This document shows positions 3,121 to 59,280 of a stretch of DNA of 64,000 nt, one piece after another. The notes below the pieces were generated by a model. The model saw only the letters and a list, made by a program, of their open reading frames with translations, was not told where the DNA came from and ran no database searches. The DNA is from Eledone cirrhosa (lineage: Eukaryota). Position numbers and translations under genes: made by a program. The stretch covers positions 177,692,001 to 177,756,000 of the forward strand of contig OZ024743.1 in assembly GCA_964016885.1 (NCBI GenBank), written 5' to 3'. Each line of letters starts with the position of its first letter. The first letter of the stretch is position 1.

Positions 3121-3440
3121 TTAAACAATAATAATTCTAATCAGGTTCCTTAACTCTATAGTACAAAGACTAAAGTGTTTTATGTTGACGAAAAGGAATA
3201 ATTTGTTAAGGGAACATAATAATTTTGTCAGAGAAGTAGTATTTTCAGCTTTTTTTATTTTTAAAAGAATGGGTATGAGCATAAAATCCAGTCTTGAATG
3301 CATTGGCAGTAGCCCCTATATAATTAAAATAGTTATCATTAGTTAAAACCACGCATCTATAAATAACATTAGTTGTAAGACATCTACCTCCAAATGGGCA
3401 ATTATTAGGAATTCTACAGTTACACATAGGCATTTAATGT
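3121..3440 (-). mobile_element. Penelope-like element GIY-YIG endonuclease fragment (frameshifted)
   Basis: CNCRIPNNCPFGGRCLTTNVIYRC..YIGATANAFK..HTHSFK, then ENTTSLTKLL in another frame; homologous to ORF 39193. Confidence 0.85.
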
Positions 3441-7039: not shown

Positions 7040-7223
7040 GTCGGTGGATTGGCAGTATCGGTAGAGGGTCGGACGCCATGCTTTCACGCATAGAGTTAGC
7101 CCTTGCCATTCTGAGTTCAAATCCCGCCGAGGTTAACTTTGCCATTCATCCTTACGGGATCGATAAAATAAAGAACCAGTAATGTACTCGGTAATAACTG
7201 GCCTTGTGCCAAAAATAGAAACA
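7040..7223 (+). mobile_element. tRNA-derived SINE with MetaSINE-like core, 16-bp TSD
   Basis: A/B-box-like head (TGGCAGTATCGG, GAGTTCAAATCCC), core tttgcc.ttcatccttacggg..gataaaataaag.accag; TSD attatttcaatatagg at 7024 and 7224. Confidence 0.9.
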
Positions 7224-7903
7224 ATTATTTCAATATAGGATGTATCGTAACATTATAAAGAACACTTTATTTATACACACACATACTGACGTCTTTGTTG
7301 TCATATTTACAATATTTCGGCCGCTGCGCCCTCTGATGTTTTACTAATGTCATTATTCCTACCGTATATATATACATGACGGCTGCCCCCTCGTTATCGA
7401 ATATGGCCATTGCAGATACACCATTATTAATCATTATTAATTAATTTTATCATGCAATGCCTGTGAGTGAAGATTTTTTCTTAAAGTGAGGAAAAATTGT
7501 GCACTAAGCCAATCCCACTCTCTGAGCGATAGGAGCTATAACCCGAACAGAAGAAGAGATCAACATCATCGGTAACTACTGAGCCGCATGTTTTATGTCA
7601 GAGTCATCCGAGTTTCCTGAGTTGCCTTCTCCTAGAAGAATAGTCTGACAAAGGCTAGGGGTCCTGCACTCCAAGTAGTTTAACCGCGCGATCCAGCCTG
7701 ATTATTTCTATGTCACCACGCATATTGATACACTTGCATATACATACATATGTACATGTGTATATACATATTTACATATTTTTTTATTTGGGGGCGGTGG
7801 GGGTGGCCGTTGACTCTTATGAGTTATTCCGCCCTATACATACGTACATACACACATACACACAGACATGCATACATACATACATACATGCATACATACA
7901 TAC

Positions 7904-11772: not shown

Positions 11773-11847
11773 TATGCGATACAAATTTGTCAAGAATGTT
11801 ATTAACATTTACAAAAAAAAAAAAATTCTACGTAAGGTTTAAATAAT

Positions 11848-12032
11848 TGTTTCTACTTTAGGCACAAGGCCAGCAATTACCCAGTGCGTTACTGGTACTT
11901 TATTTCATCGACCCCGTAAGGATGAAAGGGAAAGTCAACCTCGGCGGGATTTGAACTCAGATCGTAAAGGGACATAAATATGCTGGAAAGCATAACGTCC
12001 GACCCTCTACCGATACTGCCAATCCGCCGCCC
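11848..12032 (-). mobile_element. tRNA-derived SINE, 15-bp TSD
   Basis: Full-length copy; TSD taaggtttaaataat at 11833 and 12033. Confidence 0.9.
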
Positions 12033-19185: not shown

Positions 19186-19369
19186 GTGGATTGGCAGTAT
19201 CGGTAGAGGGTCGGATGCCATGCTTTGACGCATAGAGTTACGGTCCTTGCGATTCTGAGTTCAAATCCCGCCAAGGTTTACTTTGCCTTTCATCCTTACG
19301 GGGTCGATAAAATAAAGTACCAGTAATGCACTGGGTAATTGCTGGCCTTGTGCCAAAAGTAGAAACAAT
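19186..19369 (+). mobile_element. tRNA-derived SINE, 13-bp TSD
   Basis: TSD tatattatcaata at 19173 and 19370. Confidence 0.9.
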
Positions 19370-19543
19370 TATATTATCAATAACAATTTGTCTATCTAGT
19401 TCTATTTAGGAATACCGTGTTGCAATCGTTACTGCATTTGTATTTACAATATTATTTTTATTTATTTCAGCATGTACGAGAGAAAACCCCAGCCATGATT
19501 TGGGCTTATAGAGGCTTATCAGCGAAGTTACAATTTCAACGTA

Positions 19544-22338: not shown

Positions 22339-23620
22339 CACATGCATGTGTACATAGACACATACATACACATCAATATACACTCGTACACATGCAAAGA
22401 GATAAGCGTGCTAATTGTAATTATGGCAAAAGGAAGGTAAAGTTACATTGTAGTAGTGATTTGAGAAAAACTAGGATTTAGGATCAAATGATGGCAGCAG
22501 CTGAGAAGGAATAAGTTTGTGGGTTGATGAGGTACTTACAGACATTTGTGTGGTATAGACTTGTGAAGGCTAGAGTATACTTAATGAATATATTTCTGTG
22601 GGTAGTAGGTATCCTAATTTAAAGCTATGTTGTGTTTGTTCGATTCACGGAGGTTTGAATCTTATGAATTTAGTGGCAATTCTATGTCTGCAGAAGATAG
22701 ATCTTTCTAACTTATTGTTAAGTAGCCTTTTTACATTTTTGAGGATATACAATAGCTCAAGATCACATAGCCAGCAGTGGGACATACCTGTACTATAGGT
22801 TTTAGCAGCCGACAACTTCGACCAGTTAATACTGTAGTTAGTGCTGCTGTCCTTCAGTTCCCATATTTTTTTGGCGAGGGTTGTGGAACCGATAAGTGCA
22901 CGGTTTTTCATTGAGTTCCTGTGCACATACCATCTTTTTTTAAAAGAACCCGCGGTGGATCCTATGTAATTCCAGGTGGAGTTACCCGAGATGACCGTGC
23001 ACATGTACACTAGGCTCGAATCGAGACATCTGTTCGCCAATGGGCACCTATCTGGTAGGTGACAGTTACAGTTTGAGGCGCTATTTTGTGCAGATTTTAC
23101 ATTCCTGTTTAGTACTCTGTTATAAGTGGGTTGTGATATATGCCCAATGGGGTTTTACTGCTGCGCGTTTGTATGCGCTTGTGGTTGTGATATTGTGATG
23201 TGTTTGTGCTTATAATTTGGTGCTACGTTATGTATAGATGCAGTTGATTTACTAGAGATATTTCTGTGGTTGATCTTGCGTATGTGTGATTCTATGTTTG
23301 CTGCTGTTGAGTATGAGAGTTTTATAGTAGATCTATTGAGTATTTTGTGATATCTATGCGAGATAGGGAAGTGTTTATCTATTAGTTTAAAGAATGTAGA
23401 GGGCAGTCTAGTTTTTATAGAGGAGTTGAATATTGGGTTGAACCATGGGTATTTTCTTTGTCTGTTTCTTCTATTGTTTCTTGGGTTTACGTTATTAGTG
23501 CTTTGGCCGTTTACTCCAGGTGTTACGTGTCTAACCCTATGTCTAGTCAAGTTATTTCTATTATTATGTGAGCGGTTGGAGTAGTAATTAGTAGGATTGT
23601 TTACGTTGTCTTTATTCACT
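21660..23620 (-). mobile_element. Penelope-like element 3' part (linker, GIY-YIG, 3' region)
   Basis: RQRKYPWFNPIFN..FFKLIDKHFP..ILNRSTIKLSYS; VYMC..YIGSTAGSFKKRWYVH..CWLCDLE..C.HR; 3' part homologous to 52030-52260. Confidence 0.9.
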
Positions 23621-23624
23621 AATA

Positions 23625-23850
23625 AATAATAATAGCGGCTAGAAGGACTATCATAAAATTTGAAAATAGCTACTGGGTAAGAAAGGATAGAATAAATAGC
23701 TTCGATATAACAATGGGATCAAATGATTCTGCGCAAATCACAGATATCGTGGGGCTATTCATAGCACACAACCTACATAAGGAATTCAGTAACCTCCAAG
23801 GAGGAATTTATAGGGACGACACGTTACTTATAGCTAGGAACCTAAATTAC
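23625..23850 (+). mobile_element. Inverted PLE reverse-transcriptase core fragment
   Basis: My translation: ARRTIIKFENSYWVRKDRINSFDITMGSNDSAQITDIVGLFIAHNLHKEFSNLQGGIYRDDTLLIA (MGS and YRDD motifs). Confidence 0.85.
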
Positions 23851-39051: not shown

Positions 39052-40176
39052 TCCTCTAATCTATCCTATGACGCAAACATATTTAGCAAAAACTCACAAT
39101 ATTACAATCAAGCATTAGCTAGATCCGGCCATAATATAGAAATTGAGTTCCTACCTAAGAAAACACATAGCTACAACATCATCTCGCACAACATGTCCGT
39201 GAGGAAACCTAATAATAGGAATAGCAACCACAAGTACACCAAAGCGGAGGGTGCCACCGGAAGTAACCATTACCACGGAAACTACCGTGGTGCCTTAGGA
39301 AGAAACAACACACCAAACACTAAAAACAAAAATAGAAGAAGAAATAATACATTTTTCAACCCTCCTTTCAACCTAAATGTCTCCACCAACATACCTAGGG
39401 CTTTCTTCTCACTACTAGATAAAAACTTCCCTCTAGGACACAAGTACCACAACCTTTTAAACAAAAACACTATTAAAATCTCTTACTCTACGACGCCTAA
39501 CTTAGCATACCACATAGCTAGCAGCAATAAAAGTAAAATTAATTCTTACTTCCAACAAACGAAATCACAACAGGATGTAAACCTTCTAAATACCTCTGTA
39601 GCAAGCAACCATAGTAACGGCAGTAACAATAGAAATAACACTAATATAAGAAATAACACCGGGGTCGACAACCCGAATGTCCAAAATCCTATAGCTACCA
39701 CCCAGACTTCTGCACTGCATTATAACCAGCAGACTAACACACAGGATAATTGTAACTGTAGAGCTAATAGAACCTGCCCTTTAGATAAAAAATGCCAAAC
39801 CAAGGATATCATATACTCATGCACCGTCACAACTAGCAACTCTTCAGAAACCTATGTAGGCTCCACTTCTAACTGCTTCAAAATCAGATATAATTCGCAC
39901 ATCCACTCGTTCAAAAAGCACAGTCTAGCCAACTCCACCTCACTATCTAGCTACATACACTATCTAAAAACTAAAAATAAACCTTACACACTCAAATGGG
40001 AAGTGATAGGTAGCGCGACTTCGTACAAACCACCTAATAAATTTTGTAACCTCTGTATACTAGAGACCCACAATATTATCTCTAACCGTAACCTACTTAA
40101 CAAAAAATCTGAAGTGTCTGCAACTTGCCAGCACCGCTTCAGACATTCCTTCCAAAACTTTAAGCCCAATATATAG
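39052..40176 (+). CDS. PLE polyprotein C-terminal part (RT thumb end, Asn-rich linker, GIY-YIG endonuclease), uninterrupted
   Basis: Frame open upstream of ATG 39193 (LSYDANIF..YYNQALARSGH); FFNPPFN, KISYS, CNC..CPL..KC..IIYSC..YVGST..FKIRYNSH..CNLC..LLNKKSE..CQHR. Confidence 0.9.
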   Translation, partial: SSNLSYDANIFSKNSQYYNQALARSGHNIEIEFLPKKTHSYNIISHNMSVRKPNNRNSNHKYTKAEGATGSNHYHGNYRGALGRNNTPNTKNKNRRRNNTFFNPPFNLNVSTNIPRAFFSLLDKNFPLGHKYHNLLNKNTIKISYSTTPNLAYHIASSNKSKINSYFQQTKSQQDVNLLNTSVASNHSNGSNNRNNTNIRNNTGVDNPNVQNPIATTQTSALHYNQQTNTQDNCNCRANRTCPLDKKCQTKDIIYSCTVTTSNSSETYVGSTSNCFKIRYNSHIHSFKKHSLANSTSLSSYIHYLKTKNKPYTLKWEVIGSATSYKPPNKFCNLCILETHNIISNRNLLNKKSEVSATCQHRFRHSFQNFKPNI

Positions 40177-42719: not shown

Positions 42720-42905
42720 GTGGATTGGCAGTATCAGTGGAGGGTCGGACGCCATGCTTTCCAGCATAGTTACGTCCCTTTACGATCTGAGTTCAAATCC
42801 CGCCGAGGTTGACTTTGCCTTTCATCCTTACGGGGTCGATAAAATAAAGTACCAGTAATGCACTGGTGAAATGCTGGCCTTGTGCCAAAAGTAAAAACAA
42901 TTATT
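42720..42905 (+). mobile_element. tRNA-derived SINE (further copies at about 16417, 36885, 37490-37750, 41983, 49545)
   Basis: Full-length match to the 7040 family. Confidence 0.9.
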
Positions 42906-43147
42906 TTGTTACTATCTATTACTGCAATCTGTTTAACTACAAAATATACATTCTGTCTATTCTGGGATATTTAAATATAAATGGCATAATTTAACTATTC
43001 ATTAAATTCCATGCATTTTCCTCGTTAAATTGATTAATTTTACAGAAGTTTATGTAAAGATAATTAGTGGTTGAGATTTAGTTTTGTTCTCTTATGTTCA
43101 TAATTTAAGTCGTGAGTGGGGGTCTTACTTTAAACTTTCGGCTACAC

Positions 43148-50421: not shown

Positions 50422-50467
<46 letters not shown>

Positions 50468-50731
50468 AAAGCATGTATTGAGTTAGAAACTCAAAATAGT
50501 CTCATTACAGTAAAACTTAGCTCTAGCAAAAAGGATTTTCCGAGCCGTATAGTATAACTGAACAAAAAAGAAAAACGAACACAGACATATGCATGTATGC
50601 GTTCAAATCGTAATGGACCAGAAATGCTAAGGTGAAAAAAAATACTAACTACAGACAATAGGGTTTGGTAGACTCAATTTAAGAATAAATCAAGAAAAAT
50701 AAATACAAACCAGTATTGTGGTAACTACCAT

Positions 50732-50814
50732 TCACCCGGACGGTTTTTGATGGAACCGTTTCGCAATATTATTTGTGAAGAGGTATATGAAATTCTTGGC
50801 TCATCAGCGGGTGA
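50732..50814 (-). ncRNA. Canonical type I hammerhead ribozyme with GUC cleavage site
   Basis: Minus strand: TCACCCG CTGATGA GC..long stem II..GC GAAA CGGTT ccatcaaa AACCG TC CGGGTGA. Confidence 0.85.
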
Positions 50815-51090
50815 GAAATTAGTATCCTGATCACTTCTAAATAAAATAAAGAACTGGATAGTGTGTGTATATGTAACGCACATGTTTCCAAACTTAGCGC
50901 GTCGCGCAGACTCACGTCACTAAAAATAGCAGCCGGGTCTACACGACATTTGAAATAGCTCTACGAAATAACGGAGCCGAATATATCAAAAGCATGTATT
51001 GAGTTAGAAACTCAAAATAGTCTCATTAGGATTTGAACGCTTACATGCATGTGTCTGTGCTCGTTTTTCTTTTTCCTTTTTGTTCAGTTA

Positions 51091-51149
<59 letters not shown>

Positions 51150-51339
51150 AAAAGGTATGACCCCGACGGCAGAGCTCAATCCGTTTCGACGGCTATTTCA
51201 GTCCAGAAATAGCCGTCGAAACGGCTTGAGCTCTGCCGTAGGGGTCATACTTTTTCCTATTTCCCACTCTACTACCCTAAGTATTGAGTACTCTGGTGCG
51301 TTATGATGATCCGCCTGGTTCCTTACCACAATTCCTTCG

Positions 51340-51385
<46 letters not shown>

Positions 51386-51417
51386 CGAAGGAATTGTGGT
51401 AAGGAACCAGATGGATC

Positions 51418-51448
<31 letters not shown>

Positions 51449-51454
<6 letters not shown>

Positions 51455-51846
51455 GTTTGTATTGTAAAGCCAAAACAATGCAGGTATGGACATAGAATAT
51501 AAATGCAAATGCAAAAGATATTGTTGACAATTAGTCTTTTATCTTAAATTTATTTAAATGTCCTTAATTTTCGAGATAATATCTCTTCTTCGGAGGGAAG
51601 TAAAGAGGTTAAACCAGTGTTCTAAATAGCTTGCCAAGTCATCCTGTCAGCATGACTTGGCAAGCTATTTAGAACACTGGTTTAACCGCTTCACTTCCCT
51701 CCGAAGAAGAGATATTATCTCGAAAATTAAGGACATTTAAATAAATTTAAGATAAAAGACTAATTATCAACAATATATTTTGCATTTGCATTTATATTCT
51801 ATTTCCATACCTGCATTGTTTTGGCTTTACAAATACAAACGTTTAT
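51449..51846. mobile_element. 398-bp fold-back element with an HHR-like motif in each arm
   Basis: Centre about 51647; cct CCGAAGA A GAGATA t TATCTC GAAA at TA agg at 51698-51732(+) and 51562-51596(-). Confidence 0.85.
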
Positions 51847-51880
51847 ACCTCATTACACAATGCTTCAAGTGAACTATAAC

Positions 51881-54020
<2,140 letters not shown>

Positions 54021-54199
54021 TTTCTTGAATTATTATTACTCCAAGTATAAACTACATAGAAATCACCGCGAAATCGCAGCATCACTATGGAAATGTCTTG
54101 TTGAGTCAAACTAAGCCACACGTTAATACTACCCACTACAAGAAATACTACAACTGGACTACATCTAAGTGGACTGCCATGACGATAACCTATTATCCC

Positions 54200-54248
<49 letters not shown>

Positions 54249-58613: not shown

Positions 58614-59280
58614 TGGATTGGCAGTATCGGTAGAGGGTCGGACGTCATGCTTTGGCGCATAGAGTTACGGCCCTTTCCATTCTGAGTTCAAATCCCGCCG
58701 AGGTCAACTTTGCCTTTCATCCTTACGGGATGATAAAATAAAGTACCAGCAATGTACTGGGTAATTGCTGGCCTTGTGCCAAAAGTAGAAACAATTATTA
58801 TAACAGAATCTAAGAATTTCCCGTTCACGAGTTCCTTCTGTTTGTGTGATTGGTAATTTATATAATTATAGAAAATAATTTGTTCTTTAATATTGTCGTT
58901 TGAAGATGCTCCGTGTTATTATGACAAGAATCTACATGATATAATTGTTTCTACTTTTGGCAAAAGGCCAGAAATTATCCAGTACATTACTGGTACTTTA
59001 TTTTATGGAGCCCGTAAGGATGAAAGGCAAAGTTAACCTCGACGGGATTTGAACTCAAACTGTAAAGAGACGTAACTATGCTAGAAAGCATGTCGTCCAA
59101 CCCTCTACCGATACTGCCAATGACAATATAATGATTTGTACTATAGGCACGAGTCCAGCAATTTGTGGGGAGGGTAAAGTCGATTAAATCCACCCACTGC
59201 GTAATTGGTGCTTTATTTTATCGACCCGACCCCTGTCAGGATGAACAACAAAGCTAACCTCGGCGGGATTTTACCAATCC
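58609..59280. mobile_element. SINE cluster (+ copy 58609-58797; - copies 58942-59280)
   Basis: 7040 family. Confidence 0.85.

What the first reader, a model, noticed from the sequence alone, without database searches (positions are those of the whole stretch)
50462..51096. Complete GUC-cleaving type I hammerhead with long stem II in a direct-plus-inverted repeat cassette
Seen: 7-bp stem I, intact CUGAUGA/GAAA core, 5-bp stem III plus the A-U pair and a GUC triplet at 50732-50814(-). It should fold as a monomer, unlike the minimal motifs. The cassette has a 46-bp direct repeat (50462, 50983) and an about 55-bp inverted repeat (50552-50610 vs 51030-51096) and lies between (TA)n tracts. It is the best candidate for an active ribozyme here.
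Basis: partly seen in the sequence, partly recalled or inferred. Interest (0 to 1): 0.7.

Follow-up and report, generated by a model that had tools for sequence, protein, structure and literature searches.

The report
Two-armed Penelope-type hammerhead retroelement
This is one of several hundred copies of a 521-base non-coding repeat that carries a self-cutting-RNA (hammerhead) motif; its mirror-image insertions almost always end at two different fixed sites, which suggests that a Penelope-type jumping-gene enzyme copied a likely circular RNA from both sides of a DNA break, while the motif itself is predicted to fold poorly.

Summary
The type I hammerhead at 50732-50814(-) is real (0 equal matches in 100 shuffles; two compensatory pair changes across 99 copies). 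But 'long stem II' is wrong: 2 bp close a 34-nt loop, and the active fold is predicted about 7 kcal/mol above a fold that hides GAA, here and family-wide. The 'cassette' is one insertion of a dispersed, non-coding 521-nt unit (123-193 exact-pattern hits; roughly 500 arms) in (TA)n. The direct repeat is the start of a second unit; the inverted repeat is a second, short arm. Arms end at two fixed sites 82 nt apart, and 44 of 46 assignable two-armed insertions use one site per arm: the Penelope 'tail' signature. Arms run up to 1.76 units, read through the cleavage site and match their own locus best, consistent with a circular or multimeric RNA. No coding partner was found; a young Hydra-type Penelope element in this genome has the same two-end anatomy but no sequence link. 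Cleavage, circles and expression are untested. The scan noted this two-armed pattern before in other repeat families of this genome. Verdict: retrozyme-like non-autonomous Penelope derivative; this copy is not an especially good ribozyme candidate.

The parts
50466..51028 (-). Arm A: 563 nt = one 521-nt unit plus the first 42 nt of the next; 3' end at fixed site A (50466) running into (TA)n
51026..51097 (+).
50732..50814 (-). Type I hammerhead motif: stem I 7 bp, CUGAUGA, stem II 2 bp with 34-nt loop, GAAA, stem III 5 bp plus A-U, GUC; predicted cut after 50739
50724..50823 (-). Hammerhead with the upper part of stem I (ACUA/UAGU beyond a 5x4 internal loop)
   Evidence: 94% of cells paired, no change on both sides
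50760..50779 (-). Predicted competing hairpin in the loop that takes in the GAA of the core; conserved in sequence, no compensatory change seen
50466..50547 (-). 82-nt 'tail' between site B (50548) and site A (50466), present on one arm only
50462..50507 (+). Direct repeat copy 1 (end of arm A, including AT microhomology with the target)
50983..51028 (+). Direct repeat copy 2 (the same segment one unit earlier)
50424..50465 (.). (TA)n target tract, left
51089..51147 (.). (TA)n target tract, right (overlaps the TATA end of arm B)

Best explanation
This is one insertion of a non-coding 521-nt repeat with a hammerhead motif, likely copied in trans by a Penelope-type reverse transcriptase-endonuclease that primed at both ends of a cut (TA)n tract, likely on a circular RNA that the hammerhead would cut out of longer transcripts. 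Shown: the unit, its dispersal, the (TA)n target, two fixed 3' ends 82 nt apart, one end per arm in 44 of 46 assignable two-armed insertions, arms longer than one unit, no ORF, compensatory changes in stems I and III. Inferred: RNA intermediate, Penelope enzyme, priming at sites A and B (as with the two start sites of the anole element in vitro), head-to-head joining of the two cDNA ends, a single template for both arms. Predicted only: the ribozyme is slow or conditional because a competing hairpin hides GAA. Untested: cleavage, ligation to a circle, expression.
For: Fixed 3' ends at site B (56 of 230 pieces, 53 followed by TA-like repeat) and site A (101 of 230, of which 33 are read-through into the next unit) with scattered 5' ends. 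44 A+B, 1 A+A, 1 B+B among 69 head-to-head junctions, 23 of which had an end that could not be assigned; p 3e-11 against an even split on the 46. Anatomy matches partial tandem + inverted copy + one-sided tail (PMC8557442) and tail = stretch between two RT start sites (PMC11167929). 6 arms span the cleavage site twice, longest arm 919 nt; 5'-repeated segments match their own locus better than the median other locus in 24 of 26 cases and show no fixed difference from terminal segments in 94 columns. B-like arms stop at site A more than expected (6 of 31 at risk, 1.2 expected; A-like 0 of 33; window chosen after looking). Cleavage-to-cleavage monomers from 3 natural two-hammerhead copies fold as circles with z -5.2, -4.0, -4.5 (30 shuffles each). 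Pair 1.1-2.1 AU 49/GC 43 and a stem III pair GC 71/AU 18 of 99. A young Hydra-type element in the same genome has two fixed 3' ends 115 nt apart in (TA)n (13 and 18 of 32 loci).
Against: No pile-up of 5' ends at the cleavage site (3 of 140 at risk, 2.1 expected) and 127 of 194 arms cross it, so cut linear RNA is not the main template; this fits a circle but also uncut RNA. No locus with two complete units was seen in the 150 family loci fetched, unlike classic retrozyme arrays. 5' ends pile up about four-fold near the second pass of site B for both arm types (19 of 23 in the pattern-selected sample, 33 of 48 in all), which a transcription start there explains as simply as a collision on a circle. 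The hammerhead fold is not the predicted fold in 65 copies with intact core (median 7.1 kcal/mol above the minimum), and RNAalifold recovers only stem III. The covariation rests on two inherited events; number of doubly changed pairs does not beat shuffles (3 against 3.7). No A-to-G excess on the RNA strand (8.7 against 10.1 per 1000, p 0.19). No coding partner with sequence similarity.
Confidence: 0.6

Rival explanations
1. Same Penelope-driven, two-site priming, but on uncut linear transcripts: an RNA of about 600 nt starting near the second-pass site B (internal promoter), with occasional read-through or template jumps; the hammerhead is mostly idle at the copying step.
For: Both arm types pile up at the same 5' region; most arms cross the cleavage site; predicted misfolding; in vitro the anole element used unprocessed RNA and hammerhead mutants did not matter (PMC11167929).
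Against: 15 of 48 arms run beyond that region, up to 919 nt; the repeated 5' segment has not diverged from the 3' one, so it must be regenerated each cycle; compensatory changes in the hammerhead and strong self-pairing of the monomer need a function.
Confidence: 0.27
2. The unit is only the pseudo-LTR of an autonomous Penelope element whose coding body was lost by 5' truncation in the sampled copies.
For: Hammerheads sit in pseudo-LTRs and most copies are truncated (PMC4209133); only part of the family was sampled.
Against: Long arms continue into the previous unit, never into shared foreign sequence; no ORF in six frames; Penelope-type ORF pieces near 150 family loci are unrelated neighbours, and the one directly abutting family (L114) shows no similarity to the unit in 14 other copies.
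Confidence: 0.08
3. A locus-specific, efficient monomeric ribozyme cassette framed by purposeful direct and inverted repeats.
For: Core intact, stems I and III predicted to form (0.94, 0.96); tertiary contacts and core stacking are not in the energy model.
Against: One of hundreds of copies; repeats explained by the insertion process; 34 of 99 copies have a damaged core or stem II, about what neutral decay at 2.9% per site gives; this copy has a private change that worsens the fold.
Confidence: 0.05

Closest known systems
Metazoan non-LTR retrozymes (PMC7229834, parts 2-3 of 6 read; preprint 10.64898/2026.07.22.740005, parts 1-3 of 5 read)
   Same: Non-coding unit with a type I hammerhead, low G+C, head-to-tail repetition, strongly self-paired predicted monomer, co-existence with Penelope elements; the preprint derives them from Penelope pseudo-LTRs.
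   Different: Unit 521 nt (170-400 in the tested invertebrates; 51-972 in the preprint); never two full units in the loci fetched; two-armed insertions with two fixed ends; hammerhead with stable stem III but 2-bp stem II and a 34-nt loop; no cleavage or circle data.
Endonuclease-containing Penelope-like elements and their pseudo-LTR, inverted copy and tail (PMC8557442, passages; PMC11167929, parts 1-2 of 4)
   Same: Partial tandem, adjacent inverted 5'-truncated copy, one-sided tail, (TA)n target, hammerhead upstream of the two end sites.
   Different: No ORF; tail 82 nt rather than 30-40; both ends carry TATA-like microhomology with the target, whereas the anole element starts at non-homologous sites.
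Penelope-associated hammerhead variants (PMC4209133, parts 1-2 of 4)
   Same: Type I core in a Penelope-type repeat, G10.1-C11.1 pair, low activity expected without helpers; fungal and protist variants also have a large helix III.
   Different: Metazoan minimal forms have a long helix II and no or tiny helix III; this one has the reverse.

Membership tests
Type I hammerhead ribozyme | Core CUGANGA, GAAA, NUH with stems I and III, stem I open | tested here: met
   core columns 88-99 of 99 conserved
Type I hammerhead ribozyme | Stable stem II | tested here: inconclusive
   2 bp, 98% paired in 99 copies, no double change; predicted pairing probability 0.0
Type I hammerhead ribozyme | Rfam gathering score | tested here: not met
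   HH9 18.3 bits against 52; the model penalises long loops
Type I hammerhead ribozyme | Self-cleavage after NUH | not testable with these tools
   bench test; genomic 5' ends show no pile-up at the site
Non-LTR retrozyme | Non-coding repeat unit with a type I hammerhead | tested here: met
Non-LTR retrozyme | Tandem copies with at least two hammerheads | tested here: inconclusive
   not at this locus; 6 of 201 arms hold two, at most 1.76 units; no full dimer seen
Non-LTR retrozyme | Highly self-paired monomer | tested here: met
   z -4.0 to -5.2 in 3 of 3 monomers; prediction only
Non-LTR retrozyme | Expressed as linear and circular RNA | not testable with these tools
   needs RNA data or northern blot
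Penelope-like element (autonomous) | ORF with RT and GIY-YIG endonuclease | tested here: not met
Penelope-like insertion anatomy | Partial tandem, inverted 5'-truncated copy, one-sided tail, microsatellite target | tested here: met
Penelope-like insertion anatomy | 3' similarity to an autonomous partner | tested here: not met
   two coding families tested: tail score reached by 433 of 1000 shuffles, hammerhead region by 29 of 1000; other families not tested

The most novel reading that the evidence does not exclude
A dimeric Penelope enzyme binds the 82-nt tail of one circular RNA, primes both ends of the DNA break at the two tail borders, and the two polymerases run on the same circle and stall at each other's anchor; the oversized loop II is a switch that keeps the hammerhead off in the circle until protein binding or co-transcriptional folding turns it on.
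Probability: 0.25. Interest if true: 0.75.

Novelty: new variant of a known kind. Interest (0 to 1): 0.48.

Why it matters
How Penelope elements make their tandem and inverted insertions, and whether animal retrozymes are copied from RNA circles, are open questions in the papers read. This family gives a countable genomic rule (one start site per arm, 44 of 46) and a small, ORF-free substrate beside a young intact Hydra-type enzyme, so dual priming, circle use and protein-assisted cleavage can be tested directly. The single copy in the window has no special standing.

Tried and rejected
Long stem II: rejected; a distal 5-bp helix exists in most siblings (91% paired, no double change) but is broken here; two other loop helices show no double change. 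Cut linear RNA as main template: no support. Autonomous partner: the Hydra-type element next to one copy (L121) and the older family abutting L114 share no sequence with the unit; an apparent cluster of 5' ends near one position had no shared upstream sequence. Pfam HTH family search: family not in the library. Pfam and PDB give nothing for the L121 protein; the Atlas does not hold it; its clade rests on motifs from the paper. Rfam miRNA hits are (TA)n hairpin artefacts below gathering score. Earlier notes: none by sequence or nearby. Eight paper searches listed no paper on this family or on a one-site-per-arm rule; the octopus repeat paper has no hit for hammerhead, retrozyme or ribozyme. Supplements were not read (those of PMC8557442, PMC4209133, PMC7229834, PMC11167929 and the preprint may bear on novelty), and Repbase and Dfam could not be checked.

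Full report
Coordinates. q numbers count along the minus strand from window 51088 (q1); q623 is 50466, q541 is 50548, the predicted cut follows q350 (50739). The source is a 3.0-Gb animal genome rich in microsatellites; I did not identify it.

Observation. A descriptor scan of both strands finds one hammerhead in the window, at 50732-50814(-): stem I 7 bp, CUGAUGA, 38 nt, GAAA, stem III 5 bp plus A-U, GUC. Shuffles give none at that stringency in 100 trials. The 38 nt hold only two contiguous pairs, so stem II is short and loop II is 34 nt. Rfam aligns it to HH9 at 18.3 bits, far below 52. The 83-nt fold has z -2.7, but its minimum-energy structure pairs AUGAG of the core and GAA with the loop. 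The direct repeat is exact, spacing 521; the inverted repeat is 66/72 nt.

Family. A genome search gave 2395 candidates, 40 scored, with matches of 87-96% identity on many contigs. Three exact patterns gave 123, 153 and 193 matches, controls 0; the second pattern catches 8 of 28 arms chosen by another pattern, so about 500 arms cover that part, a rough figure. I fetched 150 family loci (30 best BLAST hits, 53+30 from the first 100 places, 7, 30; some overlap and were de-duplicated in scripts). The unit has no ORF. Upstream of long arms lies the previous unit, the opposite arm or flank, never shared foreign sequence. Rare changes run at 2.9% per site, the window copy has 5 in 521: fairly recent, not brand new.

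Ends. Of 230 aligned pieces, 56 end at q541 and 101 at q623 (33 of these read on into the next unit); nearly all are followed by TA-like repeat, and both sites end in TATA-like letters. Of 201 chained arms, 69 head-to-head junctions were found: 44 join an A arm to a B arm, 1 A+A, 1 B+B, 23 had an end that BLAST broke early and were not assigned; p 3e-11 on the 46. The window copy is arm A (563 nt) plus arm B (about 70 nt). Craig et al. describe partial tandems, an adjacent inverted truncated copy and a one-sided 30-40-bp tail as Penelope features (PMC8557442, passages); Frangieh et al. show that the anole protein cuts and extends both strands, is predicted to be a dimer, and starts at two internal sites that bound the tail (PMC11167929, parts 1-2 of 4). 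The one-site-per-arm rule is what two primings at the two ends of one break would leave. The two arms overlap in what they copy, so they need either two RNAs or one RNA read twice (Penelope RTs lack RNase H; recalled, no call). Arms of one locus are more alike (0.951, 64 pairs) than the median other locus (0.917) but usually not more than the best other locus (0.967): same subfamily, compatible with one template but not proof, and conversion between inverted arms could add to it.

Template. 127 of 194 arms cross the cut site, 3 of 140 stop there (2.1 expected), 6 cross it twice, the longest is 919 nt. The repeated 5' segment resembles its own locus's terminal segment in 24 of 26 cases and has no fixed difference in 94 columns (smallest p 0.002 before correction), so it is regenerated rather than inherited as a separate repeat: circle, multimer or template jump. 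B-like arms stop at site A (6 of 31, 1.2 expected; A-like 0 of 33), a post hoc count. Both arm types stop about four times more often near the second pass of site B, which fits a collision on a circle for B arms but fits a transcription start equally well. Three natural monomers fold as circles with z -4.0 to -5.2, as reported for retrozyme circles (PMC7229834, parts 2-3 of 6). The circle route for Penelope elements is proposed, not shown, in PMC4209133 (parts 1-2 of 4). No A-to-G excess was seen.

Ribozyme. In 99 copies picked by a pattern that allows two changes per block, the hammerhead pairs hold in 93% of cells against 30-43% when slid; pair 1.1-2.1 is AU in 49 and GC in 43, a stem III pair GC in 71 and AU in 18. 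These are two inherited events, and the count of doubly changed pairs does not beat shuffles. 65 of 99 keep core and stem II, in line with neutral decay after insertion; selection acted on the templates. In those 65 the hammerhead fold lies a median 7.1 kcal/mol above the minimum, stem II probability 0.0, GAA unpaired 0.09; RNAalifold finds stem III only. The model lacks tertiary contacts and I had no positive control, so this predicts a slow or assisted ribozyme, not a dead one; the anole hammerhead needed protein and 8 of 9 frog dimers did not cleave (preprint 10.64898/2026.07.22.740005, parts 1-3 of 5). The window copy's C at 50789 (G in 122 of 130) breaks the distal loop helix.

Enzyme. 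Next to one copy lies an intact ORF (L121) with RWK, DKT, CxCX5C, CxxC and CxH motifs, the marks of the Hydra clade in PMC8557442; Pfam and PDB gave no useful match. The 150 scored matches are 99-100% identical, and its copies end at two sites 115 nt apart in (TA)n (13 and 18 of 32 loci). It shows that the machinery and the anatomy exist here, but it shares no significant sequence with the unit, so the actual partner is not identified.

Earlier notes. After these results I looked up the scan's notes: several describe the same two-armed pattern in 310-, 422-, 467- and 518-601-nt families of this genome. They are unchecked and not counted as support; none matched this sequence or place.

Verdict. 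It works like a non-LTR retrozyme mobilised by a Penelope enzyme; membership is met for the sequence features, open for tandem arrays, cleavage and circles. New variant of a known kind. Interest 0.48.

Noticed in passing
window 51148-51340, 51385-51419, 51452-51883: Palindromic inserts stacked in the same (TA)n tract, with one arm longer by about 83 nt (51148-51340) and 40 nt (51452-51883): probably very short two-armed insertions of other families; the first recurs beside several family loci.
   Followed up: partly
window 52031-54200: Two-armed insertion between (TA)n tracts, one arm about 179 nt longer, holding the C-terminal endonuclease part of a Penelope-type ORF at 53153-53581(-).
   Followed up: partly
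window 22651-23454(-), 23656-23820(+), 39055-40173(+), 3254-3424(-): Further Penelope-type ORF remnants by tblastn with the Hydra-type protein.
   Followed up: no
window 54427(-) and 28866(-): Two copies of a minimal hammerhead-like motif (4 nt between the boxes, near-palindromic stem III region) of another repeat family.
   Followed up: no
L121:6607-9039(-); L155; L156: Very young Hydra-type Penelope family (785-aa open frame, tandem unit about 3.6 kb). About 110 nt after the stop it has CUGAUGA followed by GAUA in place of GAAA and a GUC, the same in the copies printed: an odd or dead hammerhead in an active family.
   Followed up: partly
L006:2911(-) and 3292(+); L121:4719(+); L123:818 and 1112(+); L122:6335(-); L124:8452(-): Other type I hammerhead-like motifs with 26-53 nt between the boxes: oversized loop II seems common in this genome.
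   Followed up: no
window 50559-50580(-): A conserved pyrimidine tract ending in CAG just before site B resembles a splice acceptor; Penelope elements have an intron near this position (PMC8557442). No donor was looked for.
   Followed up: no
L052 (G000:C1:293787000-293788500): Tail-to-tail perfect inverted duplication of the unit (343 nt, 100% identical), unlike the usual head-to-head form; possibly a fold-back event or assembly artefact.
   Followed up: no
window 7044-7230, 11843-12023, 19188-19374, 42720-42906, 58941-59121 and others: Dispersed SINE-like repeat of about 180 nt in many copies.
   Followed up: no
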